Shown piece by piece: positions 1-19,258 of a stretch of DNA of 64,000 nt. Source of the stretch: an uncultured Alphaproteobacteria bacterium (GTDB lineage Bacteria > Pseudomonadota > Alphaproteobacteria > Rhizobiales > Beijerinckiaceae). The stretch covers positions 1,122-65,121 of the forward strand of contig CAVPVQ010000029.1 of assembly GCA_963709185.1 (NCBI GenBank). The letters are read 5' to 3'. Made by a program: the position numbers and the translations under genes. The first letter of the stretch is position 1. Each line of letters starts with the position of its first letter. The notes under the pieces were generated by a model. The model worked only from the letters and a program-made list of their open reading frames with translations. It was not told where the DNA came from and did not search any database.

Positions 1-374
1 CTCTCTTGCGGTCGACCTGCTCGAAACCCGCCGGTACGACCTGTTATTTGGTCCAATAGTTGCTGCTGAATTGCGAAAGGCATTGCCCCTCCCCGTCGCG
101 ATTTCTTGAGCAGGTCAAAGACCGAACAGACGTGACGAATTGTTTGCTCGTTCAGCGTCATCTCCGGCCAATCCGCCCGCACAACGGACCGCTGATCCCG
201 CAGCGCCCGAAATCAACCGCTTCGCGGCGCGAAAGGCAAGGCGGCGCAGCCTCCGGCGCGCCATTATCTCGCCCCGCGTCGCTTTTCCCGCGTTCGGCGA
301 ACGACTAAGACTAGGAGGCGATCGGGCCCGCGCCGGCCCGCCCGCCCGGCCAAATCGAAACTGGAGGGAGCGCC

Positions 375-1013
375 ATGAAAGCTCGCACACAACCTGGACG
401 CACATCGCAATATGCGCGGAAAACGCCGGCTCGCGGGCGTTGTCTGGCGACGCTCCGGCCCGACGGCGCTGAGGCTTCGGGCCAATCATCGCTTGTGCGG
501 TTTCTGGCGGCGGCGGCGGCCGTATCGATGCTGCTCGTTTCGACGGCGCCCGTCCACGCGCAGGCGGGCGGGTGCGAACTCATCCCCGACGACCGCAATC
601 CGCCGGAAAAGATCTTGCGATGCGGCGCGGCGCTGGAGGTCCGCTCCGCGCATCAGACCGACTATCACGCCGTCGATCAGGCCGGGAACGCGCCGCCGAA
701 CGCGATACAACTCGACTCCGGCGCCCTGATGATCGAGTTCCACCCGAGCAAGGGACACAGACACTTCCAGATTCTGACGCCCAACGCGATCGCCGCCGTG
801 CGCGGGACGAAATGGGTCGTCGAAGTCTCGTCCGCGCGCACGTCGACTTTCGTCATCGCCGGAAGGGTCGCCGTTTCGCGCCCGCACGGCGAGCAGACGG
901 TGCTTCTGAGGCCCGGCGAGGGAGCGGACGTCGCTCCGGACGGCGCGCCGATCGTCGTCAAGCGCTGGGCCGCGCCGCGCGTGCAGGCGCTTCTCGCGCG
1001 CTTCGGGCAATAG
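375..1013 (+). CDS. FecR-domain periplasmic protein
   Basis: GGAGGG RBS before ATG 375; signal-like stretch (FLAAAAAVSMLL..AHA); FecR-type motif FQILTPNAIAAVRGTKWVV..STFVIAGRVAV. The start could be GTG 495. Confidence 0.8.
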   Translation: MKARTQPGRTSQYARKTPARGRCLATLRPDGAEASGQSSLVRFLAAAAAVSMLLVSTAPVHAQAGGCELIPDDRNPPEKILRCGAALEVRSAHQTDYHAVDQAGNAPPNAIQLDSGALMIEFHPSKGHRHFQILTPNAIAAVRGTKWVVEVSSARTSTFVIAGRVAVSRPHGEQTVLLRPGEGADVAPDGAPIVVKRWAAPRVQALLARFGQ

Positions 1014-2875
1014 TGCGGCTCAGCGCTCCTTCGCTCGCCAGCCTCATCACCGCCGCCTTTGTCGCGGCGGGCGTTCTGTGGGGCGGATTCCTCGGCGCCG
1101 CGCAGATCTCGGGGGTCGGCTCGTTCCTCGACGGCCTCGAATATCTCACCCTCGACTGGCGTTATGCGCTGGCGGGCCCGAGACCCGCTCCGCGCGGCGT
1201 GGTCGTCGCCGCCATCGACGACGAAATGGTCCATGACGCCGGCGCCTATCCGCTGCCTCGTGGCGTGCTGGCCCGCATCATCCGCGGCCTCGCGGCGCTC
1301 GATCCCCAGGCGATCGCGATCGACATCGCGTTTCTCGACGCCGGTCAGGCCGAGGAGGACAAGCAGCTTGCCGAGGCGCTCCAGTCGACCAGGTCGGTCA
1401 TCGCCGCCATCGGCGTCTTCGACGGCGAGCGCGCGCGGGACCAGCCATGCGGGGCGAACTTGCTGCCCGGCATTCCTCGGCCAACGCGCGTGCTGTGGCC
1501 CACCGCCCCGCTCCGCGATTCCGCGCGATCGGCCCTCGTCAATGTGACGACCGACGCCGGCGGGATCCCGCGGTTCATCCCGATGATCTATTGCTCGGAC
1601 GATGTGGTCGTCCCGTCGTTCGCCCTGGCCGCGGCGTCCATCGCCTTGAGCGCGGAGCCGGTGCTCGGGATCGACGCGCTGAAGCTCGCGGGGAGAGCCA
1701 TCAGCATGGACATCGGCTATCACTTGCCGATCCGCTACTACGGTCCACGCGGCGCGATCCGGCGGTTCAGCGCCGCGCGGATCATCCACGGCGACCTCAA
1801 TCCCGACGACGTGCGCGGCCAGATCGTCATCCTGGGCGCCACGGCGCTGGGCGTCGGCGACACATTCGCCACGCCGTTCGACCGCATCGTGCCGGGGGCC
1901 GAGATTTTCGGCACGGCGATCACCAATCTTCTGGCCGGCGACGGCCTGATCCGGACGGCGCTGGTTCGAGAAATCGACGCGGGCGCGGCGGTCCTGTTGC
2001 CGTCCGTCACGGTCCTGCTGATGGCGATGCGCCGACCGTTCGCCGGATTGGGGCTTGCCGGTCTGCTCTTCGCGCTGTTTCTCGCGCTGGCGTTCGCCGC
2101 CTTTCTCCAGGGCTACTGGTTCAGCGTCGCAATTCCGCTCGCCGCGTCCATACCGGTCGTGCTCGCCTATGGCGCGACGCGGCTGGGGCTGGACCGCTAC
2201 GCCGCCGGCCGCCTGAAAACCGACCGGGCGACCCTGGCGCAGTTCCAGTCTCCGCTGTTGGTCGAGCACATCCTCAACAATCCCAGGTTTCTTGAAAGCC
2301 CGGTGCATCAGGGCGTGGCGGTGGTGTTTCTCGACCTTTCGGGCTTCACCGGCGCAGCCGAGATCCTCGGGCCGCTGTGGACGCGCGATCTGCTCGCAGC
2401 GTTTCAGGCGCTGATCGAAGGCGTCGCGCTCGCCCACGGCGGATTCGTCGTCAGCTTCATGGGCGACGGCGCGATGATCGTCTTCGGTCTGCCGGAGCCG
2501 CGGCCGGACGATGCGTCGCGCGCGCTTGTCGCGATCGGCCGCCTGCGCGAAGCCGTCGCCGCATGGCTGGACGGGCTGCCGTCGGTCGCCCGCGACCGGC
2601 TTCGCGCGCGTATCGGCGGACATTTCGGTCCGGCGGTGGTCTCGCTGCTCGGATCCGCGCACCATCGGCATGTCGCGGCGACCGGCGACACGGTCAATGT
2701 CGCGAGCCGGCTGCTCGAGGTGGCGAAGGAGCGGCGATGCGGCGTCGTGGTCAGCGAGGAGCTTTGCGCCGCGGCCGTTCCGCCGCAATCTTTTCCCGAC
2801 GACGCCGATGTCGTCGCCCTGGAGGTCGGCATTCGCGGGCGCGCGCAACCCTTGCGGATTCGCGCCTGGCGCTGA
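1013..2875 (+). CDS. CHASE2-domain membrane adenylate/guanylate cyclase (class III)
   Basis: GTG start overlaps the fecR TAG; N-terminal TM; CHASE2 (VVVAAIDD, IAIDIAF, PGAEIFGTAITNLL); 3 TMs; cyclase motifs VFLDLSGFT, FMGDGAM, GDTVNVASRL. The track ORF from 572 over-extends the 5' end. Confidence 0.9.
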   Translation: MRLSAPSLASLITAAFVAAGVLWGGFLGAAQISGVGSFLDGLEYLTLDWRYALAGPRPAPRGVVVAAIDDEMVHDAGAYPLPRGVLARIIRGLAALDPQAIAIDIAFLDAGQAEEDKQLAEALQSTRSVIAAIGVFDGERARDQPCGANLLPGIPRPTRVLWPTAPLRDSARSALVNVTTDAGGIPRFIPMIYCSDDVVVPSFALAAASIALSAEPVLGIDALKLAGRAISMDIGYHLPIRYYGPRGAIRRFSAARIIHGDLNPDDVRGQIVILGATALGVGDTFATPFDRIVPGAEIFGTAITNLLAGDGLIRTALVREIDAGAAVLLPSVTVLLMAMRRPFAGLGLAGLLFALFLALAFAAFLQGYWFSVAIPLAASIPVVLAYGATRLGLDRYAAGRLKTDRATLAQFQSPLLVEHILNNPRFLESPVHQGVAVVFLDLSGFTGAAEILGPLWTRDLLAAFQALIEGVALAHGGFVVSFMGDGAMIVFGLPEPRPDDASRALVAIGRLREAVAAWLDGLPSVARDRLRARIGGHFGPAVVSLLGSAHHRHVAATGDTVNVASRLLEVAKERRCGVVVSEELCAAAVPPQSFPDDADVVALEVGIRGRAQPLRIRAWR

Positions 2876-2911
2876 ACGGGTCGGGCGTGTCGCGGTAAAT
2901 CCAAACCGGCG

Positions 2912-2927
2912 TGTTCCCTGAGGAACA
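2912..2927 (+). promoter_or_regulatory. Clr/CRP-type palindromic box TGTTCC-CTGA-GGAACA
   Basis: Perfect 6-4-6 palindrome matching the rhizobial Clr consensus as I recall it (HGTYHC-N4-GRWACA); a second copy at 7620-7635 lies the same distance (94 nt) from its ATG. Confidence 0.7.
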
Positions 2928-3020
2928 GCGCGCCCGGTCGATTTCAACGATCGTGCTGCTGCGAGACGGTCGACCGCGACGAATGTTCGTCCGGACCGCT
3001 CGAAGACAGGAGTAACGATC

Positions 3021-3302
3021 ATGAAAAATCTTGCTGGCTATTCTATCGCCGCCTTCGCCGGCGCCACGATGCTCGCGATGTCCATGAGCCCGGCGTCCGC
3101 CTTCACTCTGTCCGGGCCTTCCCTGGAGCAGCCCGTCGCTTCCGCGCAGATCGACAAGGTCTGGTGGCGGGGCGGCGGCTGGCGGGGCGGATGGGGCTAT
3201 CGCGCATGGGGCTGGCGCCGTCCGGTCTGGGGTTGGACCGGTTACGCGTACTATCCGGGCTATTGCTGGCGCGGCTACTACGGCTACCTCCATTGCAACT
3301 GA
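3021..3302 (+). CDS. Small secreted Gly/Trp/Tyr/Arg-rich protein, 93 aa
   Basis: AGGAG RBS; Sec signal ending ASA; C-terminal WWRGGGWRGGWGY...YCWRGYYGYLHCN low-complexity tail with two Cys. Confidence 0.85.
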   Translation: MKNLAGYSIAAFAGATMLAMSMSPASAFTLSGPSLEQPVASAQIDKVWWRGGGWRGGWGYRAWGWRRPVWGWTGYAYYPGYCWRGYYGYLHCN

Positions 3303-3333
3303 AATCGCGACACGGCGCCGACGTCAGGCGCGA

Positions 3334-3365
3334 GACGGCCGTCGACCTCCAATCCGACGGCCGTC
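3334..3365. terminator. 11-bp perfect hairpin GACGGCCGTCG-N10-CGACGGCCGTC
   Basis: Inverted repeat about 30 nt after the stop of 3021-3302; no U-tract, so it may be an mRNA-stabilising stem instead. Confidence 0.35.
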
Positions 3366-3483
3366 AAACGCCCGCGGCGGGGCCGGGATTCGCAGGCGCG
3401 ACGCGGCGTTGCCGACAACGCCGAGTCGCGGCATAGTGACGTCCGAACCGAAGCTCATGGCTGTCCCGGACAGGCAGGCGCGA

Positions 3484-3978
3484 ATGAGGCTGGTCACCGC
3501 CATCGCCATTCTGGCTCTCGCAGCGGGCGCGTCAGCCTCACTGCCGGCAAGCGCGTTCGCGCAGGATCAACCTGCCACGCCCGACACGGCCTATGTCCCG
3601 AACGTGAGCGATGTGATGGGGCAAACGCAGCTCCGCCATTTCAAGCTCGGCTATGCCGGCGCTCTCGGAAACTGGGCGCTCGCCAACTACGAACTTGGAC
3701 TTGTCGCCGACAGTTTCCACACGACGTCCACACTGTTGGCCGCGCCCAGCGATGCGCGCCTCGCGCAACTGTTGACGCAGGACTCGGCGCCGCCGCTCTC
3801 CGATATCGGCAAGGCGATCGCCGCCGGAAGCAAAGAGGATTTCGGCCGCGCTTTCGAGCGGCTGACCGACGCCTGCAACGCCTGCCACAGCGCCGCGCGG
3901 GTCGGCTTCATCAAAATCAAGTTCCCAACCACCTCGCGCAATTTCCTGTTCAGCAACCAGATCTTTCCCCCGGAATAG
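3484..3978 (+). CDS. Periplasmic monoheme c-type cytochrome, class II-like (C-terminal CXXCH), paralog 1
   Basis: Signal peptide; helical body; CNACH near the C-terminus. Start could also be 3457 or 3409. Confidence 0.75.
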   Translation: MRLVTAIAILALAAGASASLPASAFAQDQPATPDTAYVPNVSDVMGQTQLRHFKLGYAGALGNWALANYELGLVADSFHTTSTLLAAPSDARLAQLLTQDSAPPLSDIGKAIAAGSKEDFGRAFERLTDACNACHSAARVGFIKIKFPTTSRNFLFSNQIFPPE

Positions 3979-4016
3979 CGGCGACGCGTCACGCGCCGCC
4001 ATTCATCGTTGACGCC

Positions 4017-5856
4017 GTGCACGAGACCTCCGCCGATCAGCCCGCCGAAGCGCCCGCCGCGACGCCGCGGCCGATGCTGATCTATGACGGCGATTGCGCA
4101 TTCTGCGGCTACTGGGCGCGCTACTGGCGCAAGCTCACCGGCGAGCGCGTCGAATATCGGCCCTACCAGGACGCCGCCGCGCGGTTTCCCGAGATTTCAG
4201 AGGCCGAATTCCGGCGCGCCGCGCAGTTCATTGCGCCCGACGGACATCGCGCCAGCGGCGCCGAGGCCAGTTTCCTGACCTTGAGCCACGCGCGCGGCAG
4301 GGGATGCTGGCTCGTCCTCTACCGCCATCTGCCCGGCTTCGCCGCGGTCTCGGAGCGGGCTTACGCATTCATCGCCGCGCATCGCTCGGCCTTCTTCCGC
4401 GTCAGCCTGATGCTGTGGGGCGCCGAGCACGCGCCGCCGCGCTACGATCTCGTGTCGTTCTTGTTCCTGCGGCTGTTCGGGCTGATCTACCTCTCGGCGT
4501 TCCTCTCCTTCGCGGTGCAGGCGCAGGGGCTGATCGGCAGCGACGGCGTCCTGCCGCTGACCGATTTCGTCGACGCGCTCGCCGACCGTCTCGGCTCCCA
4601 GCGTTTCTTCCTCGCGCCGATGGTGTTCTGGCTCAACGACAGCGATGGGGCGATTCAGGCGGTTTGCTGGGCCGGCGCCGGGCTATCGCTGCTGCTGGTC
4701 GCCAATCTCGCGCCGCGCCTCAGCCTGCTTCTGCTCTATGCGCTCTATCTCTCGCTGTTCTACGCCGGCCAGACCTTCATGAGCTTCCAGTGGGACACGT
4801 TCCTGCTGGAGACCGGATTTGTCGCGCTGCTGCTGAGCTTCGCCACCGCGCAGGGCGTCTGGCTGCTGCGCTGGTTGCTGTTCCGTTTCATGTTCATGTC
4901 GGGCGTCGTCAAGCTGCTGAGCGGCGACGCCAATTGGTGGGGTCTGTCGGCGCTGTCGAAGCATTTTCTGACCCAGCCGCTGCCGACCCCGCTGGCCTGG
5001 CACGCCGCGCAACTGCCGTCGGACCTGCTGAAATTCGCCACCGGCGCCATGTTCGTCGTCGAGCTGATCCTGCCGTTCCTGATTTTCTTCCCGCGCCGGA
5101 TGCGGTTCCTCTCGGCGTTCGGCATCCTCACGCTGCAGAGCGGCATTCTCCTCACCGGCAATTACAACTGGTTCAATCTGCAGACCATGTTGCTGTGCCT
5201 GCCGCTGTTCGACGACGCGGCGGCGCGCAATATCCTGCCGGGTCCGCTGGTCCGGCTGTCTCCAGCGGGGCGCGGCGAACCACGCGCCGCGACGAGTGGG
5301 CGCGTTCGCGGTCAACGCCCTGGCGCTGCTGCTCGTGTTCTGCAGCCTGACGCTGATGGACCTGCGTTTCGGCGGCGATCCGCCGGCGACGGCGCAGGCG
5401 GTCGACGGCGCGATCGAGCCGCTGCATATCGTCAGCGCCTATGGTCTGTTCGCGGTGATGACCACGCAGCGCGACGAAATCGTCATCGAGGGTTCGAACG
5501 ACGGCGTCGAGTGGCGCGAATACGAATTCCGCTACAAGCCCGGCGATGTCGCGCGCCGCCCGCTCTGGAACATCCCGCATCAGCCGCGGCTCGACTGGCA
5601 GATGTGGTTCGCCGCGCTCGAAGACCCGAGGGATCTGCCGTGGTTTTCACAATTCGTGATCCGGCTGCTGCAGAACGAACCCGCCGTGACGGCGCTGCTG
5701 GAAAAGAACCCTTTTCCGGATCACCCGCCAACCTACGTGCGCGCGCAGTTCTACGAATACACCTACGCCAGCCGTGAGGAAAAGGCGGAAGGCCGGTGGT
5801 GGGACCGCCGGTTGCTGGGCCTGTATTTTCCCGCTGCGCGGCTGAGGGGCAAGTGA
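4017..5856 (+). CDS. DCC1-like thiol-disulfide oxidoreductase (DUF393) fused to a lipase maturation factor (LMF1) family membrane protein; frameshift near 5259
   Basis: IYDGDCAFC (DxxCxxC) N-domain; LMF motifs FQWDTFLLETGF, WLLFRFMFMSGVVKL, TQPLPTPLAW, LTGNYNWFN; C-terminal part (YGLFAVMTT..REYEFRYKPG..PHQPRLDWQMWFAAL) continues in the 5296-5856 frame. Confidence 0.85.
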
Positions 5857-6071
5857 TCGCGTCGTCGGCAAGCGGTCGCCAGGAAACAGCATTTCTCGGA
5901 CCGGCCCGATCGAACAGCGAAGGCCTGCCTTTCGGGGCGCGCCTCACACTTCATGCTCGGGCGAGGCTCACCCGGATCATGGCGCCGGCTCCTTCAGGGA
6001 GCGAATACAAGGGGCCGGCGATACCGGAGCGCCGCGTCGCCGCGGCGCTCCACAGTCGATGGATTCGGCTC

Positions 6072-7526
6072 TCAGTATTTCCCAAGAAGAGCCTTGATCA
6101 TGTTCGAGAGGGGATTGACGCCGGCCGTCTGGGCGGCCCCGCCCGTCAGTCCACCGCCGGCGCTGCCGCCAAGACCAGTGCCAAAACCTGTTTCAGTCGC
6201 GGTGACCGGGTTGACCACGGATGCATTGATGCCGATTTTCCCTGCCCCCGAGAGTCCTCCCGCGCCGAGTATCGCCATGCCGAGATAGCCCCAATCCGTT
6301 GCGATGCCCTGCACGGCGTTGATGTCTCCCGCCGTCAACGGCGGGGCGCCCTGGGTCGGCAGGCCGACGTTGAAAATCGCCGGCACCGAACCGTTGAGCT
6401 GGCTGCCAACCGAACTGGGGTTGGGGTTGTTGGAGCCGAACGGATTGGCGATGATGAAGCTGTTGGTGGCGTTGGCCTGGCTCGTTCCGATGTTGATGGC
6501 GCCGGATCCATTCGCGCCATTGGTCGGAAGCTTGATCACGATCGGCGGCGCCGTCCCGAGCCCGCCGTTGTTGCCCGCGTCGCTCGTGGCGGCGGCGGCC
6601 GTCCATTGCGATTGATTGATCAACGACGCCACTGAGTTGACCGCGCCCAGAGCGCCGCCCGCGCTGAGTCCGCTCTGCGGCGCCGGCTTCGCGTTGGCCG
6701 CCGCTCCCGCGAGCGCTCCCGCCGAGGATTGCGCCGCCGCTATGTTGGCGGCAATCGCGTTGCCGGCGGCTGTGAACGCGTTCTGGGCGTTGGAGACGAA
6801 CATCGACGGCGCGCCGCCGGATGCGCCGCCAATGGCGGCGCCGACCTTGCTCCCCGCCTCGCCCCATCCGAACATTTGCAAGTTGGTGAGGCCGTTGCTC
6901 TGGCTGATGGCGGTCTGGAGATCGGTGACGCTGCTGGTCGAGGACGGAGCGGTCAGGTCGGTGAGGCTCGCCAGCGAGTCCGGAGCGCTGCTCGCGCCGG
7001 TGTAGGGACCGTAGTCGGGCGTCGTCGTGCCCGGCTTGGGAACCGGGATCGGTCCGGTGGCGATGGTCGCCTTGACGTTCGGCGCGGCGAAGGTCGACCC
7101 GCCGGCCGCAAGGCCCGCGGCGGTAGTCACCGGCGTCGTAGAGATATGCAACGGGGTGATCGTGGTGTTGGCCGAAAGGCCTGCCGCCGTGGTCACCGGC
7201 GTCGTGGAAATATGCAGCGGGGTGATGGTGGTGTTGGCCTGCAGGCCGGCCGCGGTGGTCACCGGCGTGGTGGAAATGTGGAACGGGGTGATCGTGGTGT
7301 TGGCCTGCAGGCCCGCCGCCGTGGTCACCGGCGTGGTGGAAATGTGGAACGGGGTGATCGTGGTGTTGGCTTGCAGGCCCGCCGCCGTGGTCACTGGCTT
7401 CGAGGACACCGGCTGGCCGAGATAGTTCAGCGGCGTCGTGTTGAGCATCTGCGCCGCGTGGGCGCCGGCGAGGCCAGCGAGGCTAAAGACGAGGGCGATC
7501 GCCGTGGTCTTGGTGAAGCGGTTCAT
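6072..7526 (-). CDS. Secreted Thr/Ala/Gly/Ser/Asn-rich protein with 22-aa tandem repeats
   Basis: AGGAG RBS before ATG 7526; signal peptide MNRFTKTTAIALVFSLAGLAGAHA; about 484 aa, no Cys, no recognisable domain. Confidence 0.85.
   Translation of the reverse strand: MNRFTKTTAIALVFSLAGLAGAHAAQMLNTTPLNYLGQPVSSKPVTTAAGLQANTTITPFHISTTPVTTAAGLQANTTITPFHISTTPVTTAAGLQANTTITPLHISTTPVTTAAGLSANTTITPLHISTTPVTTAAGLAAGGSTFAAPNVKATIATGPIPVPKPGTTTPDYGPYTGASSAPDSLASLTDLTAPSSTSSVTDLQTAISQSNGLTNLQMFGWGEAGSKVGAAIGGASGGAPSMFVSNAQNAFTAAGNAIAANIAAAQSSAGALAGAAANAKPAPQSGLSAGGALGAVNSVASLINQSQWTAAAATSDAGNNGGLGTAPPIVIKLPTNGANGSGAINIGTSQANATNSFIIANPFGSNNPNPSSVGSQLNGSVPAIFNVGLPTQGAPPLTAGDINAVQGIATDWGYLGMAILGAGGLSGAGKIGINASVVNPVTATETGFGTGLGGSAGGGLTGGAAQTAGVNPLSNMIKALLGKY
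7110..7397 (-). repeat. 66-bp (22-aa) tandem repeat, 4 full copies plus a partial: PVTTAAGLQANTTITP(F/L)HISTT
   Basis: accggcgtgg recurs at 7261 and 7327 (period 66); the copies differ mostly at synonymous positions. Confidence 0.95.
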
Positions 7527-7619
7527 GGTCGTTGCTCCTGTTAGCGAGAGGCCCGGACGATCATTCGTCCCCGTCAACTTTCTCGTGGAAGCATCATCGC
7601 CGTCCGCCCCGTCCGGCGC

Positions 7620-7635
7620 TGTTCCCGGGGTGACA
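7620..7635 (-). promoter_or_regulatory. Second Clr/CRP-type box TGTCAC-CCCG-GGAACA in the divergent promoter
   Basis: Matches HGTYHC-N4-GRWACA; 94 nt from ATG 7526 and 67 nt from divergent ATG 7702. Confidence 0.7.
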
Positions 7636-7701
7636 GCCCGGCGCGCCGACTTCGCCTACCGTCATGGGCATCGAACGGCTCAACCCGACGGAGTGAACGC
7701 C

Positions 7702-8589
7702 ATGCCGCGCCAAGCCAGCCTCATCGCCAGCGTCTCGACAGTCCTCGCCGCGACCCTCCTCGCCTCCCTCGCCCACGCCAGCGAGGCCGCTCAGCCCCTC
7801 GACCATTCGCTGGCGCTGCCGGGACAACTGGTGCGCGTCGCCGACGCCAACGCGGCGACCTGCGTCAAAGCCCCCGCCCCGGTCGATCTGAAGGCGCTCG
7901 GCGACGCGATCAAGGCGCAGATCGTCCATCGGGCGCGGCTGGAGGCCGAGCTGCAGGGGCGCGGCGACATCGAACTCCCGGCGCCGCTGCAAGGCCAGCA
8001 GGGCGTCGAGCCAATCGCCGGCGCGCTGCGCGACGAACAGGCGGTGTTCGCCGCCCGCAAGGACGCCCTGAGCGCCCAGGTCGCCTCGCTGACCCAGGAC
8101 AAGGGGTTCTCGCAGCGCGAGATCGAGCTGACCACCGCCAAGGAGGCGGCGCTCGCCCGCCAGGAGGCGCTCGCCCAGAAGGACCTCGACAAGATCGGCG
8201 GCCTGCTCAGCGAGGGGCTGGTTTCCGGACCGCAGAAGCTCGCGCTGGAGCAGAACATCCTGCAGGCCGAGGCCAGCCGGCTCGACGTCAAGCTGGCGAC
8301 GCTGCGCGCGCAGCAGGAGATCAGCAAGATCGACCGCAACATCGTCGATATTCGCAACCAGTGGCGCAACGATTCGCTGGCCGAGTTCAACAAGACCCAG
8401 GCGGCGCTAATCGACCTCGCGCAGCAGGCGCGCGCCGCCGAGGCCGCCGCCGCCACGCCCGCGGCCGCGCCGGCCGAATGCGGCGAGGCGAAGGACGCGC
8501 TCTACATCATCCTGCGCGGCCCCGGCGGCGCCATGCAGGCCTTCCCCGTCGCCGCCGGCGGGCCGGCGATCGCGCGCAACGGACAATGA
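7702..8589 (+). CDS. Periplasmic long coiled-coil protein resembling the ExoF/HlyD-AprE alpha-hairpin, without a Poly_export domain
   Basis: GGAG RBS; signal peptide; RARLEAEL..EQAVFAARKDALSAQVASL..GLVS..LEQNILQAEASRLDVKL heptads; short C-terminal YIILRG remnant. Confidence 0.65.
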   Translation: MPRQASLIASVSTVLAATLLASLAHASEAAQPLDHSLALPGQLVRVADANAATCVKAPAPVDLKALGDAIKAQIVHRARLEAELQGRGDIELPAPLQGQQGVEPIAGALRDEQAVFAARKDALSAQVASLTQDKGFSQREIELTTAKEAALARQEALAQKDLDKIGGLLSEGLVSGPQKLALEQNILQAEASRLDVKLATLRAQQEISKIDRNIVDIRNQWRNDSLAEFNKTQAALIDLAQQARAAEAAAATPAAAPAECGEAKDALYIILRGPGGAMQAFPVAAGGPAIARNGQ

Positions 8590-8726
8590 CCGAACCGGCG
8601 CACGCCAAGCCGACTTCGTCTCCGACGGTGACCCAAGCCCGCCGCGGCGGTTCAGCATTGCCGGGAGCGCCGGGCCGGGGCAGTATAATCGCCCCGCCCC
8701 TGTCGATCCCCGGGAAGCCGGTTCAC

Positions 8727-9212
8727 ATGCGACACGCCAAGGCCATCGCCGCGCTGCTCTGCTCGGCCCTCGCCGTCGCCGTGCTGTCGGCGCACACGCA
8801 AGCTCAGGAACAGTCCGCGCAATCCAGTTCGGCCTATGCGCCCAAGGTCGCCGACATCATGGGCCAGACGCAACTGCGACACTTCAAGCTGTGGTTCGCC
8901 GGCAGCGCGGGCAATTGGGCGCTCGCGAGCTACGAGCTGGGGCAGATCAGGGGCGGTTTCGACGCGGCGGCGAGGCTCTACCACACACCTGGCGGCGCGC
9001 CGTCCGCGCGAGGGTTGAAGGACGACAGCGGGCCTCCCGTGGCCGATGTCGCCAAGGCTGTCGCGGCCGGAAACAAAGAAGATTTCATCAAGGCCTTCGA
9101 GCGGCTGACGATGGCCTGCAACGCCTGCCATCAGGCCGCCCATGTCGGATTCATCAGGATCAGGGTGCCGACCTCGTCGCCGTTCACCGACCAGTCTTTT
9201 CCGCCGGAGTGA
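8727..9212 (+). CDS. Periplasmic monoheme c-type cytochrome, paralog 2
   Basis: Signal peptide from ATG 8727; perfect TATAAT at 8684-8689; CNACH; shares MGQTQLRHFKL, GNWALAxYELG, KEDF, AFERLT, VGFI and FPPE with 3484-3978. Confidence 0.75.
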   Translation: MRHAKAIAALLCSALAVAVLSAHTQAQEQSAQSSSAYAPKVADIMGQTQLRHFKLWFAGSAGNWALASYELGQIRGGFDAAARLYHTPGGAPSARGLKDDSGPPVADVAKAVAAGNKEDFIKAFERLTMACNACHQAAHVGFIRIRVPTSSPFTDQSFPPE

Positions 9213-9355
9213 CGGCAAGATCGCGGACGCCCTGCGTCGCCGACGCGGCACGCGCCATTCCTTCCTTGACACGGGCCGGCCGGGGCGCCGAGTATCCATC
9301 AACGCCGTCGCGCCCGGTCTGGCCAGCGAACCGGCGCGGGAGGAGCGGCATAGCG

Positions 9356-10900
9356 ATGGGCGTTTCCGCGGTCGCCAACGCCTGCGCCGACCTTGTCGAT
9401 CGCAATGTCGCCGAGGGGCGCGGCGACAAGCCGGCGTTCCTTGAAGCGGGGCGCGCCCTCACCTACGGCGCGCTGCAGGCGCAGACCTGCCGTTTCGCGC
9501 GCCTGCTCGCGCGCCTCGGCCTGCGGCGCGAGGACCGCATCGCCATGGCGATGCTCGACACGATCGAATTTCCGGTGGTTTTTCTTGGCGCAATCCGCGC
9601 CGGAATCGTGCCGATCCCGCTCAACACGTTGCTGACCACCGAACAATATTCCTACATGCTCGCCGACTCGCGCGCCAAGGCGCTGGTCGTGTCGGCCGCG
9701 CTGTGGCCGGCGCTGGAGCCCGCCCTCGCCCACGCGCCGGACCTCGTCCATGTGATCCTCGCCGACGGCGAAGCGCCCGCCCAAACGATTGCGCTCGACC
9801 GGGCGCTCGAAGGCGAGTCCGCCGACTTGACGCTCGCGCCGACCCATCCCGACGAGCCCTGCTTCTGGCTCTATTCCTCGGGTTCGACCGGCGCGCCCAA
9901 GGGCGTGCGCCACGTCCATTCGAGCATGAGCGATACGGCGCGGACCTTCGGGCGGCAGGTGCTGCAAATTCGCGAAGACGACCTCGTCTTCTCGGCCGCC
10001 AAGCTGTTTTTCGCCTACGGGCTCGGCAACGCGTTGTCATTTCCGCTGCACGTCGGCGCGACCGCCTATCTCCTCGCGGCGCGGCCGACGCCCGGCGCCG
10101 TGTTCGACACGCTCGAAAAATCCGACGCGACGATCTTCTGCGGCGTGCCCACCCTGCTCGCCGCCATGCTCAACGATCGCGGTCTCGCCGGGCGACGCGC
10201 CGGGCCGCGCCTGCGCCTCTGCACATCGGCGGGCGAAGCGTTGCCGGCGCATATCGGCCTGGCCTGGCGCGCCCGCTTCGGCGTCGACATCCTCGATGGC
10301 GTCGGGTCGACCGAAATGCTGCATATCTTCCTCGCCAACGCGCCTGGCGACATCGTCTATGGCGCGTCGGGCCGGGCGGTGCCGGGGTATGAATTGCGCC
10401 TGCTCGATGAGAAGATGCAGCCGACGGCGGACGGCGAAATCGGCGAACTCTATGTGCGCGGCCCCTCGGCCGGCGACGGCTACTGGAACCAGCGCGAAAA
10501 GAGCCGCGCGACGTTTCAGGGCGAGTGGACGCGCACCGGCGACAAATACACGCGCGACGCGACCGGCCTCTACACCTATTGCGGACGCGCCGACGACATG
10601 TTCAAGGTCGGCGGCGTCTGGGTCTCGCCATTCGAAGTGGAGACCGCGCTCGCCGGCCATCCCGCCGTTCTCGAGGCGGCGGTCGTTCCCGCCGAGGACG
10701 GGGACGGCCTGTTGAAACCCAAGGCCTTCATCGTTCTCAAGGACGGCGCTTCGCGCGAGGGTCTCGTCGAGGCGTTGCAGGCGCATGTCAGGGCGAGCGT
10801 CGGCGCATGGAAATATCCGCGCTGGATCGAAATCGTCGACGCTCTGCCCAAGACGGCGACCGGCAAGATCCAGCGCTTCAAATTGCGCGAGCGGGCCTGA
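9356..10900 (+). CDS. Benzoate-CoA ligase family protein
   Basis: GGAGGAG RBS; FWLYSSGSTGAPKG, DGVGSTEMLHIF, GRADDMFKVGG, LPKTATGKIQRF; next to boxC/boxB. Confidence 0.9.
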   Translation: MGVSAVANACADLVDRNVAEGRGDKPAFLEAGRALTYGALQAQTCRFARLLARLGLRREDRIAMAMLDTIEFPVVFLGAIRAGIVPIPLNTLLTTEQYSYMLADSRAKALVVSAALWPALEPALAHAPDLVHVILADGEAPAQTIALDRALEGESADLTLAPTHPDEPCFWLYSSGSTGAPKGVRHVHSSMSDTARTFGRQVLQIREDDLVFSAAKLFFAYGLGNALSFPLHVGATAYLLAARPTPGAVFDTLEKSDATIFCGVPTLLAAMLNDRGLAGRRAGPRLRLCTSAGEALPAHIGLAWRARFGVDILDGVGSTEMLHIFLANAPGDIVYGASGRAVPGYELRLLDEKMQPTADGEIGELYVRGPSAGDGYWNQREKSRATFQGEWTRTGDKYTRDATGLYTYCGRADDMFKVGGVWVSPFEVETALAGHPAVLEAAVVPAEDGDGLLKPKAFIVLKDGASREGLVEALQAHVRASVGAWKYPRWIEIVDALPKTATGKIQRFKLRERA

Positions 10901-18238: not shown

Positions 18239-19258
18239 ATGGCGAAGATGCGTGCGATGATCGTCCCGAAAGCCGGCGCCCCGTTCGAAATGGTGGAGCG
18301 CGATTCCCCCGCGCCCGGCCCGCATGAGGTGCGCATCAAGGTGCAGGCGTGCGGCGTCTGCCACAGCGATTCGGTCACCGTCAATGGCCTGATGCCGGGG
18401 ATCGCCTATCCGCGCATTCCGGGCCACGAAGTGATCGGAATCATCGAGGCGGTCGGCCCCGACGTGGCGGGCTGGAGCGTCGGCGAGCGGGTCGGCGTCG
18501 GCTGGTTCGGCGGCGCCTGCGGCTATTGCGGCAATTGCCGGCGTGGCGACGCCTTCGCCTGCGAGAATATCCACGGCGCCACCGGCGTCACGCGCGACGG
18601 CGGCTACGCCACCCATATGCTGGCCCTGACTTCCGCGCTGGCGCGCGTGCCGGAGGCGCTGGATTCGGTCGAGTCGGCGCCGCTGCTGTGCGCCGGCATC
18701 ACCACCTTCAACGCGCTGCGCAATTGCGGCGCCGGCCCCGGCGACCTCGTGGCGATCCACGGCGTCGGCGGGCTCGGCCATCTCGGCATGCAGTTCGCGG
18801 CGCGGCAGGGGTTTCGCACCGTGGCCGTCAACCGCGGCCGCGACAAGGAGCAACTGGCCCGCTCGCTCGGCGCGCACGCCTATATCGACAGCGCCGCCGA
18901 GGACCCCGCCAAGGCGCTGCAGGCGATGGGCGGCGCCAAGGCGATCATCGCCACCGTCACCGACGCCGGCGCGATGCAGGCGATCGCCGGCGGCCTCGGC
19001 CCCAACGGCGTGCTGATGGTGATCGGCGCGGTCGGCGCGCTCACCGTCAATTCGCTTGATCTGCTGGCCAAGCGCGCCGCGGTGAAGGGCTGGTATTCCG
19101 GCACCTCGGCCGATTCCGAGGACACGCTGCTGTTCAGCGAGCTCAACAAGATCGCCTCGATGAACGAGGTGTTCCCGCTCGAACAGGCTCAAGCGGCCTA
19201 CGACCGGATGATGAGCGGCAAGGCGCGCTTTCGCGTGGTGCTGAAGATCGAGGGGTAG
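18239..19258 (+). CDS. Zn-dependent alcohol dehydrogenase (MDR)
   Basis: CHSD, GHE, CGYCGNC..C structural Zn, GVGGLG Rossmann, GKARFRVVL end. Confidence 0.92.
   Translation: MAKMRAMIVPKAGAPFEMVERDSPAPGPHEVRIKVQACGVCHSDSVTVNGLMPGIAYPRIPGHEVIGIIEAVGPDVAGWSVGERVGVGWFGGACGYCGNCRRGDAFACENIHGATGVTRDGGYATHMLALTSALARVPEALDSVESAPLLCAGITTFNALRNCGAGPGDLVAIHGVGGLGHLGMQFAARQGFRTVAVNRGRDKEQLARSLGAHAYIDSAAEDPAKALQAMGGAKAIIATVTDAGAMQAIAGGLGPNGVLMVIGAVGALTVNSLDLLAKRAAVKGWYSGTSADSEDTLLFSELNKIASMNEVFPLEQAQAAYDRMMSGKARFRVVLKIEG

What the first reader, a model, noticed from the sequence alone, without database searches (positions are those of the whole stretch)
2912..7635. Duplicated Clr-type promoter/leader cassette links a CHASE2 cyclase to two secreted low-complexity proteins: candidate local cAMP-controlled extracellular module
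Seen: the 109 bp upstream of ATG 3021 (+) and of ATG 7526 (-) align without gaps (73/109 identical by hand count; 35/43 over the ATG-proximal part), although the two proteins are unrelated. Each has a TGTYHC-N4-GGAACA box 94 nt from the ATG, a GATSRT hexamer that would be a -10 if the box is centred at -41.5, a GACGA-N4-TCGTC leader palindrome and AGGAG. Established: in Sinorhizobium, CHASE2 cyclases make cAMP that activates the CRP-like Clr at such boxes, and -41.5 is the class II CRP position. Inference: the FecR/CHASE2 cyclase at 375-2875 senses a periplasmic cue and co-induces the Gly/Trp-rich peptide, the repeat protein and (divergently, from the same box) the ExoF-like coiled coil. I know of no description of this target set.
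Basis: partly seen in the sequence, partly recalled or inferred. Interest (0 to 1): 0.9.

Follow-up and report, generated by a model that had tools for sequence, protein, structure and literature searches.

The report
Clr-type cyclic-nucleotide promoter cassette, duplicated
Two unrelated secreted-protein genes next to a cyclic-nucleotide cyclase carry the same 110-base control cassette (a Clr-type activator site plus a conserved mRNA leader), and this cassette recurs in related soil bacteria beside the same signalling genes, so it is a new variant of the Sinorhizobium Clr system with an undescribed target set.

Summary
The 109 nt upstream of ATG 3021(+) and ATG 7526(-) are 73/109 identical without gaps, against 30±5 for random pairs.

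- **The boxes.** Both match the published Clr binding-site consensus HGTYHCNNNNGRWACA. They are the only two such sites in 64 kb.
- **The regulator.** Near-identical sibling contigs carry a Crp-family gene immediately left of the FecR gene. Its best solved relative is S. meliloti Clr (E=2e-49), and all five base-reading side chains are conserved.
- **The cassette family.** I found 21 cassette copies in 15 contigs. Each sits directly upstream of an ORF, mostly for signal-peptide, low-complexity or repeat proteins.
- **The footprint.** Box half-sites are 0.94 and 0.86 identical and the spacer only 0.46. The box centre lies 41.5 nt from the first conserved leader base in 12 of 15 copies, which is class II geometry.
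- **Linkage.** Several cassette contigs also carry clr-like, FecR and CHASE2-cyclase genes. The coiled-coil gene has a box about 74 nt upstream of its ATG in at least six contigs.

Corrections: FecR and the cyclase are two ORFs. The coiled coil is an HlyD/ExoF-type helical hairpin without export domains. The window's own first 135 nt are anomalous.

Untested: transcription starts, cAMP versus cGMP, and binding. The leader hairpin has only weak covariation support.

Verdict: a new variant of a known kind, of moderate interest.

The parts
136..264 (-). First codons of a Clr-like (cNMP_binding + HTH_Crp_2) regulator gene. In the window it is cut off by an unmatched left end (1-135). It is complete (236-272 aa) in sibling contigs L001 and L002.
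375..1013 (+). FecR-domain protein, 212 aa, with an N-terminal hydrophobic signal-like segment. It is the counterpart of S. meliloti SMc02177.
   Evidence: PF04773, E=2e-9; PMC5498481
1013..2875 (+). CHASE2 class III nucleotide cyclase, 620 aa. Its GTG start overlaps the FecR stop by 1 nt. The substrate-specifying positions are Ser/Ala (non-canonical), as in other FecR-linked cyclases of Hyphomicrobiales.
2912..2927 (.). Clr-type box 1, TGTTCCCTGAGGAACA, a perfect palindrome.
   Evidence: consensus from PMC5498481 and PMC10127613
2949..2954 (+). -10-like hexamer GATCGT, at -12..-7 if the TSS is 2961. There is no -35 element.
2961..3020 (+). Predicted 60-nt leader of the peptide gene. The predicted TSS is 2961, which is 41.5 nt from the box centre. 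A conserved interrupted hairpin spans 2962-3002 and the AGGAG lies at 3008-3012.
   Evidence: TSS inferred, not measured
3021..3302 (+). 93-aa secreted peptide precursor. It has a signal peptide, a conserved FTLSGPSLEQPVASAQIDKVWW segment, a variable Gly/Trp/Arg/Tyr(His) core and a conserved C-terminal HCWRGYxGxLHCN.
   Evidence: a 151-nt metatranscriptome contig matches 3044-3182 with 1 mismatch
3457..3978 (+). Cytochrome c'-like periplasmic protein 1, with a C-terminal CNACH. It is 55% identical to its paralogue at 8727-9212. The start codon is uncertain (3457 or 3484).
6072..7526 (-). 484-aa secreted repeat protein. It has a signal peptide and 4.5 copies of a 66-nt (22-aa) tandem repeat at 7111-7406, followed by an Ala/Gly/Ser/Asn-rich low-complexity body.
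7527..7586 (-). Predicted 60-nt leader of the repeat-protein gene. The predicted TSS is 7586, the hairpin spans 7545-7585 and the AGGAG lies at 7535-7539.
7593..7598 (-). -10-like hexamer GATGAT of the repeat-protein promoter.
7620..7635 (.). Clr-type box 2, TGTCACCCCGGGAACA on the minus strand. It is shared by the divergent repeat-protein and coiled-coil genes.
7657..7662 (+). -10-like hexamer TACCGT of the coiled-coil gene. The predicted TSS is about 7669, 41.5 nt from the box centre. It is conserved in L099, L115/L116 and L117/L118.
7702..8589 (+). 295-aa coiled-coil protein with an N-terminal signal or anchor. It has an HlyD/LipC-type helical hairpin and is homologous to the coiled-coil part of ExoF-type proteins, but lacks Poly_export and SLBB.
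8727..9212 (+). Cytochrome c'-like periplasmic protein 2. The same coiled-coil to cytochrome c'-like order is found in L115 and L116.

Best explanation
**What it is.** The repeated 110-nt unit is a promoter-plus-leader cassette of a Clr-type (CRP-family cluster G) cyclic-nucleotide regulon.

**Proposed mechanism.**
1. The FecR-domain protein and the CHASE2 cyclase form the sensing and synthesis pair. Their input is unknown.
2. The cyclic nucleotide loads the Clr-like regulator encoded divergently next to them.
3. The regulator dimer binds the 16-bp palindrome TGTTCC-N4-GGAACA, centred at -41.5. From that position it replaces a -35 element, as at a class II CRP promoter.
4. Transcription starts at a conserved purine, predicted at 2961 on the plus strand and 7586 on the minus strand.
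5. The transcript opens at +2 with a conserved, roughly 41-nt interrupted hairpin. A free Shine-Dalgarno sequence follows, and the ATG lies at about +61.
6. I infer that the 5'-terminal hairpin stabilises the mRNA or otherwise sets its expression level. It does not occlude the ribosome-binding site.

**Targets in the window.**
- The 93-aa Gly/Trp-rich secreted peptide.
- The 484-aa secreted repeat protein.
- The HlyD/ExoF-type coiled-coil protein, driven from the same box 2 in the opposite direction. Its downstream cytochrome c'-like gene probably belongs too.

**Status of each step.**
- Shown by sequence and comparison: the similarity, the box match, the neighbouring Clr-like gene with conserved DNA-reading residues, the conserved geometry, and the conserved linkage.
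- Inferred: the transcription starts, activation by a cyclic nucleotide, and the role of the hairpin.
For: - **Similarity.** 73/109 identical against 30±5 for random pairs.
- **Boxes.** They are the only two matches to HGTYHCNNNNGRWACA in 64 kb, with 0.17 expected. The consensus and the core GTNNCNNNNGNNAC come from PMC5498481 and PMC10127613. Strong Clr sites are pyrimidine-rich on the left and purine-rich on the right, as these are.
- **Regulator.** A Crp-family gene lies next to the FecR gene in L001 and L002.
  - Its best PDB relative is S. meliloti Clr 7PZA, at E=2e-49.
  - Q184, S194, R195, K197 and N199, and the cNMP-pocket residues G85, E86, R95 and S96, are conserved.
- **Cassette family.** 21 cassette copies in 15 contigs were found through the hairpin pattern, a profile search and coiled-coil homologues.
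  - The box was not part of the search pattern. It is nevertheless present at the same place in every copy that reaches far enough upstream.
- **Footprint.** Pairwise identity is 0.94 and 0.86 for the half-sites, 0.52 for the central N4, 0.46 for the spacer, 0.71 for the -10 region and 0.88 for the leader.
- **Geometry.** The box centre lies 41.5 nt from the first conserved leader base in 12 of 15 copies, and 40.5 or 42.5 nt in the other three.
- **No ordinary promoter.** No sigma-70-type -35/-10 promoter is found in 2800-9300.
- **Linkage.** clr-like, FecR and cyclase genes lie beside cassette genes in L016, L102 and L113, which holds four cassettes. They also lie beside coiled-coil genes in L117 and in the 14.6-kb P0124 contig.
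- **Position after the cyclase.** In L016 the cassette sits right after the cyclase gene, as in the window, and drives a third unrelated secreted protein.
- **Closest genome.** In L012 a box with the same geometry follows the cyclase. A different 8-bp hairpin starts at +1 or +2.
- **Coiled-coil gene.** A box is centred 70.5-74.5 nt upstream of its ATG in the window, L099, L096, L102, L115/L116 and L117/L118.
- **Transcription.** A metatranscriptome contig covers the peptide gene.
- **Precedent.** S. meliloti has clr, cyaD1 (CHASE2), the FecR-domain gene smc02177 and the Clr-box-controlled, signal-peptide gene smc02178 side by side (PMC5498481).
Against: - No TSS is measured. The RNA data found are assembled contigs without 5'-end information, and no RNA run holds the 7380-8000 region.
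- No binding or induction data exist for this organism.
- In the window as given, the clr-like gene is broken after its first codons. The unmatched left end may be an assembly artefact.
- The nucleotide is not defined.
  - The cyclase has Ser/Ala at the substrate-specifying positions.
  - The regulator has Val-Ser where Clr has T140-T141.
- No box lies in the clr-fecR intergenic region. This differs from S. meliloti smc02177.
- The hairpin's support is weak.
  - Folding energies are no better than shuffles, with z from +0.6 to -1.9.
  - Only one pair shows compensatory change, in 2 sequences.
  - Shuffle controls are borderline.
  - Twenty of the hairpin's roughly 41-47 positions were fixed by my own search pattern.
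- More distant homologues of the peptide in Methylocapsa, Roseiarcus and another lineage have no cassette.
Confidence: 0.65

Rival explanations
1. The conserved leader works as DNA, not RNA. The nested palindromes (GTCGAC; GACGA-N4-TCGTC; CGAGA...TCTCG) at +2 to +42 would be an operator for a second, unidentified regulator. This would most likely be a repressor acting as a roadblock, so each target would need both Clr activation and de-repression.
For: - The leader is conserved mainly at the level of primary sequence (0.88 identity), including the loop.
- Folding energy is not better than shuffles.
- Covariation is minimal.
Against: - The single-sided changes that keep pairing are G-U wobbles on the sense strand: 9 cells.
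- L114 and L106b keep a long stem by pairing a changed 3' arm (…CCGUUC) with GAAC instead of CGAGA. This register shift would alter half-site spacing for a dimeric DNA binder.
- L012 has the same box and geometry with an unrelated 8-bp hairpin at the same place.
- No candidate second regulator gene is conserved in the neighbourhoods.
Confidence: 0.2
2. The cassette similarity is only shared ancestry. Under this view, the 5' regions of a family of secreted-protein genes were copied or recombined, and the palindrome is bound by some other factor or by none. The neighbouring cyclase and Crp-like genes would be unrelated to their expression.
For: - Many cassette genes share a similar signal peptide (M-x-R-x-x-x-T-A-I-A-L...), so part of the family is paralogous.
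- No experimental link exists.
Against: - The cassette also precedes unrelated genes: the 93-aa peptide, the L016 197-aa protein, the L107 GG-leader peptide and the L106 genes.
- Conservation is patterned like a footprint. Half-sites are 0.9 identical and the spacer 0.46, with fixed spacing, which is not uniform decay.
- The box occurs without the cassette leader at the coiled-coil gene and in L012, at the same distances.
- Linkage to clr, FecR and cyclase genes recurs in at least six independent contigs with different gene orders.
- The regulator keeps Clr's base-reading residues.
Confidence: 0.1
3. The GGAAC-containing element is the -35 of an ECF sigma-factor promoter, and the FecR-domain protein is its anti-sigma partner, as in FecI/FecR-type surface signalling.
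For: - A FecR domain is present.
- GGAAC is a common ECF -35 core (established knowledge).
Against: - Both half-sites of the palindrome are conserved, the left TGTTCC even more than the right (0.94 against 0.86). This fits a dimeric factor, not a -35 element.
- GGAACA is 21 nt from the conserved GATNNT hexamer, which is too far for the 16-17 nt spacers of ECF promoters.
- No sigma-factor gene was seen beside the module in L001, L002, L117 or the P0124 contig.
- The 212-aa FecR-domain protein has a signal-like N-terminus and no room for a cytoplasmic anti-sigma domain.
Confidence: 0.03
4. The cassette is a dispersed repeat of REP or MITE type that happens to lie near genes.
For: It is a repeated palindrome-rich sequence of about 110 nt.
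Against: - All 21 copies lie in one orientation directly upstream of an ORF. A Shine-Dalgarno sequence and the ATG follow 55-64 nt after the conserved purine.
- There are only two copies in 64 kb.
- The other pattern hits were unrelated terminator-like hairpins or chance matches that lack every other cassette feature.
Confidence: 0.02

Closest known systems
Sinorhizobium meliloti Clr regulon, in particular the clr (SMc02175) - cyaD1 (SMc02176, CHASE2 cyclase) - smc02177 (FecR domain) - smc02178 locus (Tian 2012; Krol 2016; Zou 2017, PMC5498481; Werel 2023, PMC10127613)
   Same: - A CRP cluster-G regulator sits next to a CHASE2 class III cyclase and a FecR-domain protein.
- The 16-bp site fits HGTYHCNNNNGRWACA.
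- The regulator keeps Clr's base-reading residues.
- An adjacent target encodes a signal-peptide protein of unknown function.
- Site-to-TSS distances of -42 to -76 are reported for Clr-activated promoters. The predicted distance here is -41.5.
   Different: - The targets are unrelated to smc02178, smb20495 or the exo genes. Here they are a Gly/Trp-rich peptide, hypervariable repeat proteins and a truncated HlyD/ExoF-type coiled coil.
- The targets share a roughly 60-nt conserved leader with a 5'-terminal hairpin, which those papers do not report for Clr targets. I did not inspect S. meliloti leaders.
- No box lies in front of the FecR-cyclase operon.
- The hosts are uncultured, probably free-living soil or peat Alphaproteobacteria.
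- The regulator has V-S where Clr has T140-T141.
Escherichia coli class II CRP-dependent promoters
   Same: A palindromic activator site is centred at -41.5 and overlaps or replaces the -35 element. The -10 is recognisable but weak.
   Different: - The half-site is different (TGTTCC rather than TGTGA) with a different spacer (N4 rather than N6).
- The regulator belongs to cluster G and lacks the RE(T/M)VGR motif.
- The geometry here is inferred from conservation, not from a mapped TSS.
Rhodospirillum centenum CgrA/cGMP control of cyst formation (cluster G CRP, as cited in PMC10127613)
   Same: A cluster-G CRP-type regulator of an alphaproteobacterium responds to a cyclic nucleotide made by dedicated cyclases.
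   Different: No sequence-level comparison was made here. The CgrA targets and site were not examined, and the cyst link is only an idea.
5'-terminal stabilising stem-loops of abundant envelope-protein mRNAs (for example the E. coli ompA 5' UTR; established knowledge)
   Same: The hairpin begins within one or two nucleotides of the predicted 5' end, the ribosome-binding site is left free, and the genes encode exported proteins.
   Different: There is no sequence relation. The function here is inferred and the 5' end is not mapped.
HlyD/LipC type I secretion adaptors and ExoF-type outer-membrane polysaccharide export proteins (for the coiled-coil gene)
   Same: - The protein has a long alpha-helical hairpin: Foldseek finds LipC 5NEN at E=8e-7 and HlyD 5C22, and TIGR01843 matches at E=1e-14 over the hairpin only.
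- Distant homologues carry Poly_export and SLBB domains together with the same hairpin family, PF25994.
   Different: The protein is only 295 aa. It has no beta-barrel or membrane-proximal domain, and no Poly_export or SLBB domain.

Membership tests
Clr (CRP cluster G) binding site / Clr-dependent promoter | 16-bp site matching HGTYHCNNNNGRWACA (core GTNNCNNNNGNNAC) | tested here: met
   Both boxes match with 0 mismatches and are the only matches in 64 kb, with 0.17 expected. The consensus is taken from PMC5498481 and PMC10127613.
Clr (CRP cluster G) binding site / Clr-dependent promoter | A Clr-type regulator in the same genome with the DNA-reading residues of Clr | tested here: met
   L001 and L002 (99.3% identical to the window) encode it next to the FecR gene. 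The best PDB hit is Clr 7PZA at E=2e-49. Q184, S194, R195, K197 and N199 are conserved. Caveat: the window itself keeps only the first codons of the gene.
Clr (CRP cluster G) binding site / Clr-dependent promoter | Site located -42 to -76 from the transcription start (activating position) | tested here: inconclusive
   No TSS data exist. The box centre is 41.5 nt from the first conserved leader purine in 12 of 15 cassettes, with a GATNNT hexamer at -12..-7.
Clr (CRP cluster G) binding site / Clr-dependent promoter | cAMP/cGMP-dependent binding of the regulator, and cNMP-dependent induction | not testable with these tools
   This needs EMSA or ITC and reporter fusions.
S. meliloti-type clr-cyaD1-smc02177-smc02178 locus | A CHASE2 class III cyclase adjacent to a FecR-domain protein and clr | tested here: met
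   Pfam finds CHASE2 (E=2e-41), Guanylate_cyc and FecR, with clr beside them. The FecR-cyclase pair is conserved in 80 Hyphomicrobiales loci.
S. meliloti-type clr-cyaD1-smc02177-smc02178 locus | A box-controlled neighbouring gene for a signal-peptide protein | tested here: met
   The cassette lies 37 nt after the cyclase stop and is followed by the peptide gene with its signal peptide. L016 has the same arrangement. Homology of the target to SMc02178 was not tested.
Any described cis-regulatory RNA family (Rfam 15) | A match to a covariance model at or near the gathering score | tested here: not met
   There were no gathering-level hits in 64 kb. Only chance-level miRNA or lncRNA matches were found in 2800-7800, and none lies on the leaders.
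Structured cis-regulatory RNA (generic) | Base pairs supported by compensatory changes beyond controls | tested here: inconclusive
   Across 18 sequences and 15 pairs, 91.8% of cells are paired. One pair shows double changes (2 cells). The covariation score is 0.086 against 0.074 in shuffles (14 of 500 reach it). The slid controls are much lower. MFE z-scores are not significant.
ExoF / OPX polysaccharide export protein | Poly_export (PF02563) and SLBB (PF10531) domains | tested here: not met
   There is no Pfam hit even at E<=1. Only distant homologues P0134 and P0135 carry these domains.
HlyD-family type I secretion adaptor | An alpha-helical hairpin plus lipoyl and beta-barrel domains and an N-terminal membrane anchor | tested here: inconclusive
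   The hairpin is present: TIGR01843 at E=1e-14 covering profile positions 89-267 of 422, and Foldseek to LipC and HlyD. The protein is too short for the beta-barrel, and the terminal segments are modelled at low confidence.
ECF sigma / FecR anti-sigma signalling | An adjacent ECF sigma gene, an anti-sigma N-terminal domain, and a -35 GGAAC with a 16-17 nt spacer | tested here: not met
   No sigma gene appears in the neighbourhoods. The spacer is 21 nt and the left half-site is conserved.

The most novel reading that the evidence does not exclude
The conserved 60-nt leader may be a new structured cis-acting RNA element that is obligatorily coupled to Clr-type promoters. It would add a second, post-transcriptional layer, either mRNA stabilisation or binding of a dedicated factor. 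The module as a whole would then be a cyclic-nucleotide-triggered programme that deposits a set of fast-evolving, intrinsically disordered or repeat proteins and Trp/Gly-rich peptides in the envelope or outside the cell. Possible roles are a matrix, a resting-cell coat or a surface-variation layer in uncultured soil Alphaproteobacteria.
Probability: 0.25. Interest if true: 0.7.

Novelty: new variant of a known kind. Interest (0 to 1): 0.5.

Why it matters
Clr signalling is understood only in the Sinorhizobium-Medicago symbiosis, and even there the function of its core targets (smc02178, smc02177, smb20495) is unknown.

This locus shows the same sensor-cyclase-regulator trio in uncultured soil and peat bacteria. 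Here it is wired to a compact target set that can be read from the sequence, because the targets are marked by one reusable promoter-leader cassette.

- **A search key.** The box plus leader gives a way to enumerate the regulon in metagenomes.
- **A target class to test.** The targets are secreted low-complexity or repeat proteins and a conserved Trp/Gly-rich peptide family.
- **A simple heterologous test.** The regulator keeps Clr's DNA-reading residues, so the cassette could be tested in S. meliloti with added cAMP or cGMP.
- **A possible new RNA element.** If the leader hairpin proves functional, it would be a new cis-element coupled to a CRP-type promoter.

If the module is simply a local Clr regulon, it is a solid but incremental extension of known biology.

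Tried and rejected
- **Rfam.** The whole window at gathering thresholds, and 2800-7800 at permissive thresholds, gave nothing on the leaders.
- **Crp gene inside the window.** tblastn with E. coli CRP and with the L001 Clr-like protein found none beyond the truncated start.
- **Upstream regions of more distant peptide homologues** (Methylocapsa sp. S129, Roseiarcus, a third lineage). None has a box or leader, so the cassette is not tied to the peptide family as such.
- **RNA evidence for transcription starts.**
  - Only assembled metatranscriptome contigs were available. One 99% match lies inside the peptide gene, and one roughly 87% homologue spans 2500-3001. Neither gives 5'-end information.
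  - No RNA run holds 7380-8000.
- **Sigma-70 consensus scan.** No promoter was found in 2800-9300. No convincing intrinsic terminator follows the peptide gene.
- **Folding-energy test of the leader.** The result was not significant.
- **One-mismatch boxes at 19170 and 38386.** The 19170 site lies inside a coding region, and both were judged to be chance.
- **Box in the clr-fecR intergenic region** (autoregulation as in S. meliloti smc02177). None was found within 3 mismatches in the window, L001, L117 or L012.
- **Hairpin pattern scan of metagenomes.** Eleven or twelve of the 23 hits were unrelated, being terminator-like GGGCCG...CGGCCCTTTT hairpins or chance matches. They were discarded because they lack the box, the -10, the Shine-Dalgarno sequence and the ATG.
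- **Substrate assignment of the cyclase from the canonical Lys/Asp (AC) or Glu/Cys (GC) rule.** This is not possible, because the residues are Ser/Ala.
- **ECF-promoter and dispersed-repeat readings.** Both were rejected (see the rival explanations).

Full report
**1.

I compared window 2912-3020(+) with the reverse complement of 7527-7635.
- They align without gaps at 73/109 identities, and at 35/43 next to the ATG.
- Random 109-mer pairs from the window give 30.4±5.3.
- The similarity starts at the box and ends at the ATG. The encoded proteins are unrelated.
- Every named element is present: TGTTCCCTGAGGAACA (2912-2927), TGTCACCCCGGGAACA (7620-7635, minus strand), the GATCGT and GATGAT hexamers, GACGA-N4-TCGTC, and AGGAG.

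One correction applies to the gene map. 'FecR/CHASE2 cyclase 375-2875' is two ORFs:
- a 212-aa FecR-domain protein at 375-1013;
- a 620-aa CHASE2 plus class III cyclase protein at 1013-2875, whose GTG start overlaps the FecR stop by one base.

**2. The boxes are Clr-type sites**

- The experimentally derived Clr binding-site consensus is HGTYHCNNNNGRWACA, with core GTNNCNNNNGNNAC (PMC5498481; PMC10127613).
- Both boxes match it exactly. They are the only matches in the 64-kb window: 0.17 are expected, and 0 of 100 shuffles reach the observed count.
- They also show the bias reported for strong sites, pyrimidines on the left and purines on the right.
- One-mismatch hits at 19170 (inside a coding region) and 38386 look like chance.

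**3. A Clr-like regulator is the left-hand neighbour**

- The window's proteins occur on sibling metagenome contigs L001-L004, which are 98.7-99.7% identical to the window (99.3% for L001 and L002) from position 136 onward.
- In L001 and L002 the gene divergent from the FecR gene encodes a cNMP_binding + HTH_Crp_2 protein.
- Its best solved relative is S. meliloti Clr (7PZA/7PZB, E=2e-49). The next group, the mycobacterial CRPs, scores 5e-26, and E. coli CAP scores 2e-10.
- The Clr structure paper names Q184, S194, R195, K197 and N199 as the base-reading side chains. It names G85, E86, R95 and S96 as pocket residues.
- All of these are identical in the alignment...sQs...gaSRpKiN... and ...fGE...pRS....
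- Clr T140-T141, which contact the nucleotide base, are V-S here. Nucleotide preference is therefore open.

There is a caveat about the window itself. Its first 135 nt match no other assembly.
- Contigs of two public runs continue with the clr-like sequence at that point.
- The 135 nt occur nowhere else in the data I hold.

I treat this as an odd assembly end or a rare variant, and I flag it.

**4. The cassette is a family, not a local duplication**

How the copies were found:
- A profile of the two window copies found a third copy in L016. It lies 31 nt after the stop of a 55%-identical FecR-linked CHASE2 cyclase and drives an unrelated 197-aa secreted protein.
- I scanned metagenome contigs with only the inner hairpin (GACGAATGNTCGTCCGGNCC). 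This returned 23 stretches, of which 11 are full cassettes.
- A profile of 14 copies then found five more with diverged hairpins. L113 holds four cassettes in all and L106 holds two.
- Homologues of the coiled-coil protein led to the copy in L115 and L116, two near-identical contigs.

That makes 21 copies in 15 contigs, counting the near-identical L115 and L116 as one and leaving out the sibling contigs L001 and L002.

What the copies share:
- Every copy lies in one orientation immediately upstream of an ORF, with a Shine-Dalgarno sequence.
- The box was not in the search pattern. It is nevertheless present at the same position in every copy that extends far enough.

| Segment | Mean pairwise identity |
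|---|---|
| Left half-site | 0.94 |
| Central N4 | 0.52 |
| Right half-site | 0.86 |
| About 20-nt spacer | 0.46 |
| -10 region | 0.71 |
| -6 to -1 | 0.45 |
| Leader hairpin | 0.88 |
| Linker | 0.46 |
| SD to ATG | 0.75 |

- The distance from the box centre to the purine that opens the conserved leader is 41.5 nt in 12 of 15 copies, and 40.5 or 42.5 nt in the rest.
- A (G/C)AT(C/G)(A/C)T hexamer falls at -12..-7.
- GGAACA lies 21 nt from that hexamer, and no sigma-70-type -35/-10 pair exists in 2800-9300.

This is the layout of a class II activator-dependent promoter. Clr-activated promoters in S. meliloti have site-to-TSS distances of -42 to -76. The TSS positions here (2961, 7586) are inferred, not measured.

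**5. The link to cyclic-nucleotide genes recurs**

| Contig | Arrangement |
|---|---|
| L102 | FecR, clr-like (58%), a cyclase, the coiled-coil gene, then a cassette driving a repeat protein |
| L113 | clr-like, cyclase and FecR next to four cassette genes |
| L016 | FecR and cyclase, then a cassette gene |
| L117 | Divergent secreted gene, box, coiled-coil gene, clr-like (77%), FecR, cyclase (68%) |
| P0124 contig (14.6 kb) | Coiled-coil gene within 3 kb of a Crp-like gene, a CHASE2 cyclase and FecR |

In the closest species-level genome (L012; cyclase 71% and Clr 79% identical) a box, TGTTACCCGGGGAACA, follows the cyclase gene. It has CATCGT at -12..-7 and a different, perfect 8-bp hairpin starting at the predicted +1 or +2.

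The gene orders differ between contigs, so this is conserved linkage rather than one inherited block.

**6. The divergent coiled-coil gene belongs to the set**

- In the window and in L099, box 2 is shared with the repeat-protein cassette. Its centre lies 74.5 nt from the coiled-coil ATG.
- In L096 and L102 the coiled-coil gene has its own box, at 73.5 nt.
- In L115/L116 the box is shared, and in L117/L118 it lies at 70.5 nt. TACCGT is conserved at -12..-7 in four of these lineages.

What the protein is:
- Pfam gives no Poly_export or SLBB domain.
- NCBIfam matches only the hairpin part of HlyD-type adaptors (E=1e-14).
- The AlphaFold model has mean pLDDT 74, and above 90 over the two long helices. 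It matches LipC (5NEN, E=8e-7) and HlyD.
- Some close homologues are labelled 'ExoF' by JGI. Distant homologues do carry Poly_export and SLBB together with this hairpin.

'ExoF-like coiled coil' is therefore right for the coiled coil only.

A cytochrome c'-like gene follows the coiled-coil gene in the window (8727-9212) and twice in L115/L116. A 55%-identical paralogue follows the peptide gene at 3457-3978.

**7. The targets**

The 93-aa product belongs to a family of at least 132 small proteins in soil and peat metagenomes, including Methylocapsa sp. S129 and Roseiarcus MAGs. The family has four parts:
- a conserved signal peptide;
- a conserved FTLSGPSLEQPVASAQIDKVWW segment;
- a variable Gly/Trp/Arg/His/Tyr core;
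- an invariant C-terminal CW...G...C loop.

The gene is transcribed in at least one metatranscriptome.

The 484-aa protein has a signal peptide, 4.5 copies of a 22-aa repeat and a low-complexity body. Its positional counterparts keep the signal peptide but carry quite different repeats: NTxPVNTxGQIVT in L096 and L112, and APAYTASLVAQQAAAKAASQVTIA in L115 and L099.

Other cassette genes encode:
- Gly/Phe/His- and Arg/Asp-rich peptides (L113b, L114);
- a Pro/Ser-rich protein (L113d);
- a double-glycine-leader peptide (L107);
- a few non-secreted small proteins (L106).

No Pfam or NCBIfam family covers any of those I tested.

**8. The leader**

- All copies can form one interrupted hairpin from +2. 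It has an outer stem CGAGA/UCUCG, a middle stem GGUC/GACC, and an inner stem GGACGA/UCGUCC with loop AUGN. The Shine-Dalgarno sequence is left free.
- On 18 sequences, 91.8% of cells pair, against 34-54% when the partner is slid. One pair shows U-A to C-G in two sequences. Nine cells are single changes to G-U.
- L114 and L106b keep a long stem by a register shift, GAACGG(G/CC) with (CC/GG)CCGUUC.
- L012 has a different hairpin at the same place.

Evidence against:
- MFE z-scores are not significant.
- The shuffle controls are borderline.
- My search pattern fixed 20 positions.

My preferred reading is an RNA 5'-terminal stem-loop that stabilises the mRNA or tunes its output. I hold this at modest confidence and keep a DNA operator as a live rival. 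No Rfam family matches.

**9. Comparison with what is known**

The closest known system is the S. meliloti locus clr - cyaD1 (CHASE2) - smc02177 (FecR domain, Clr-activated) - smc02178 (signal-peptide periplasmic protein with the founding Clr box), described in PMC5498481.

Same:
- the trio of genes;
- the site;
- the reading residues;
- an adjacent exported target.

Different:
- the targets themselves;
- the shared promoter-leader cassette, reused for at least 21 genes;
- the absence of a box before the FecR-cyclase operon;
- the hosts, which are uncultured soil or peat Alphaproteobacteria whose best named relatives are Roseiarcus and Methylocapsa;
- the non-canonical Ser/Ala substrate positions of the cyclase, which it shares with other FecR-linked cyclases of Hyphomicrobiales, including a Sinorhizobium one that has Ser/Thr.

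**10. Verdict**

- The finding is real, and its regulatory reading is well supported by comparative evidence. It remains experimentally untested.
- It is a new variant of a known kind: a Clr-type local regulon with a new target class and a conserved leader.
- Interest is 0.5. A specialist would find the target set and the cassette useful, and the leader intriguing, but the logic mirrors S. meliloti.
- The most novel reading not excluded is that the leader is a new cis-acting RNA element and the module a cNMP-triggered programme for secreted disordered or repeat proteins (probability about 0.25).

Noticed in passing
window 1-135: The first 135 nt of the window match none of the four sibling contigs, which continue here with the clr-like gene. 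Contigs of two public runs also read the clr-like sequence to the left of about position 148. The 135 nt occur nowhere else in the window or in any fetched locus. This is either an assembly chimera at a contig end or a rare rearrangement that truncates the regulator gene.
   Followed up: partly
window 4017-5856 (indel at ~5260; also ~3781): The DCC1-like / lipase-maturation-factor (LMF1 + LMF1_C) gene is split into two overlapping frames in the window (4017-5777 and 5296-5856). Sibling contig L001 lacks one C at about 5260 and has an extra A at about 3781, and its gene call is a single 790-aa product. This is probably a sequencing indel or a strain-level frameshift.
   Followed up: partly
window 3457-3978 and 8727-9212; L115 3164-3973; L116 1736-2785: Two 55%-identical cytochrome c'-like periplasmic proteins with a C-terminal CNACH motif. 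One follows the peptide gene and one follows the coiled-coil gene. The coiled-coil to cytochrome c'-like order, with two tandem copies, recurs in L115 and L116. They may belong to the module, possibly as redox or gas sensors, but no box lies directly upstream of them.
   Followed up: partly
window 3021-3302 and homologues P0001-P0120: The 93-aa peptide defines an unannotated family of at least 132 members, with several paralogues per genome in Methylocapsa sp. S129 and Roseiarcus MAGs. It has an invariant PASAFTL...KVW segment after the signal peptide, a length-variable Gly/Trp/(Arg|His)/Tyr core and an invariant Cys-X9-Cys C-terminus. His-rich variants suggest metal binding.
   Followed up: partly
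window 7111-7406 (minus-strand gene 6072-7526); L096, L099, L112, L113, L115: The repeat protein carries 4.5 copies of a 66-nt unit. Genes at the same position in related contigs keep the signal peptide but have entirely different tandem repeats. This pattern suggests rapid turnover of the exposed part.
   Followed up: partly
L107 1027-~865 (minus strand): One cassette drives a 54-aa peptide with a double-glycine-type leader (ELTFEEMEKISGG), which resembles a bacteriocin or RiPP-like precursor.
   Followed up: no
L113 9418-12701: Four cassettes lie within 3.3 kb next to clr-like, cyclase and FecR genes. Two of them are back to back, on the minus strand at 9418-9531 and the plus strand at 9743-9854. 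This is a small 'regulon island'.
   Followed up: partly
L096 3001-3055 and L102 4418-4472: In two contigs a second Clr-type box lies 39 nt upstream of the cassette box, centre to centre. This would put tandem sites at about -41.5 and -80.5.
   Followed up: no
window 2440-2460 and 2680-2700 (cyclase catalytic domain): The cyclase has Ser where canonical adenylate cyclases have the purine-specifying Lys, and Ala where they have Asp. In 77 related FecR-linked CHASE2 cyclases the pair is mostly Ser/Thr (56) or Ser/Ala (11). The ATP-versus-GTP rule therefore does not apply to this family.
   Followed up: partly
L016 (record title: Acetobacteraceae bacterium MAG): A nearly identical cassette (profile E=3.5e-19) sits in a MAG labelled as a different order from the Roseiarcus-like relatives, although its cyclase is only 55% identical. 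Either the MAG label is wrong or the module has moved horizontally.
   Followed up: no
window 9323-10900 and onward to ~17 kb: An AMP-binding CoA ligase (Pfam) and further large ORFs follow the module. They appear unrelated to it and were not examined.
   Followed up: no
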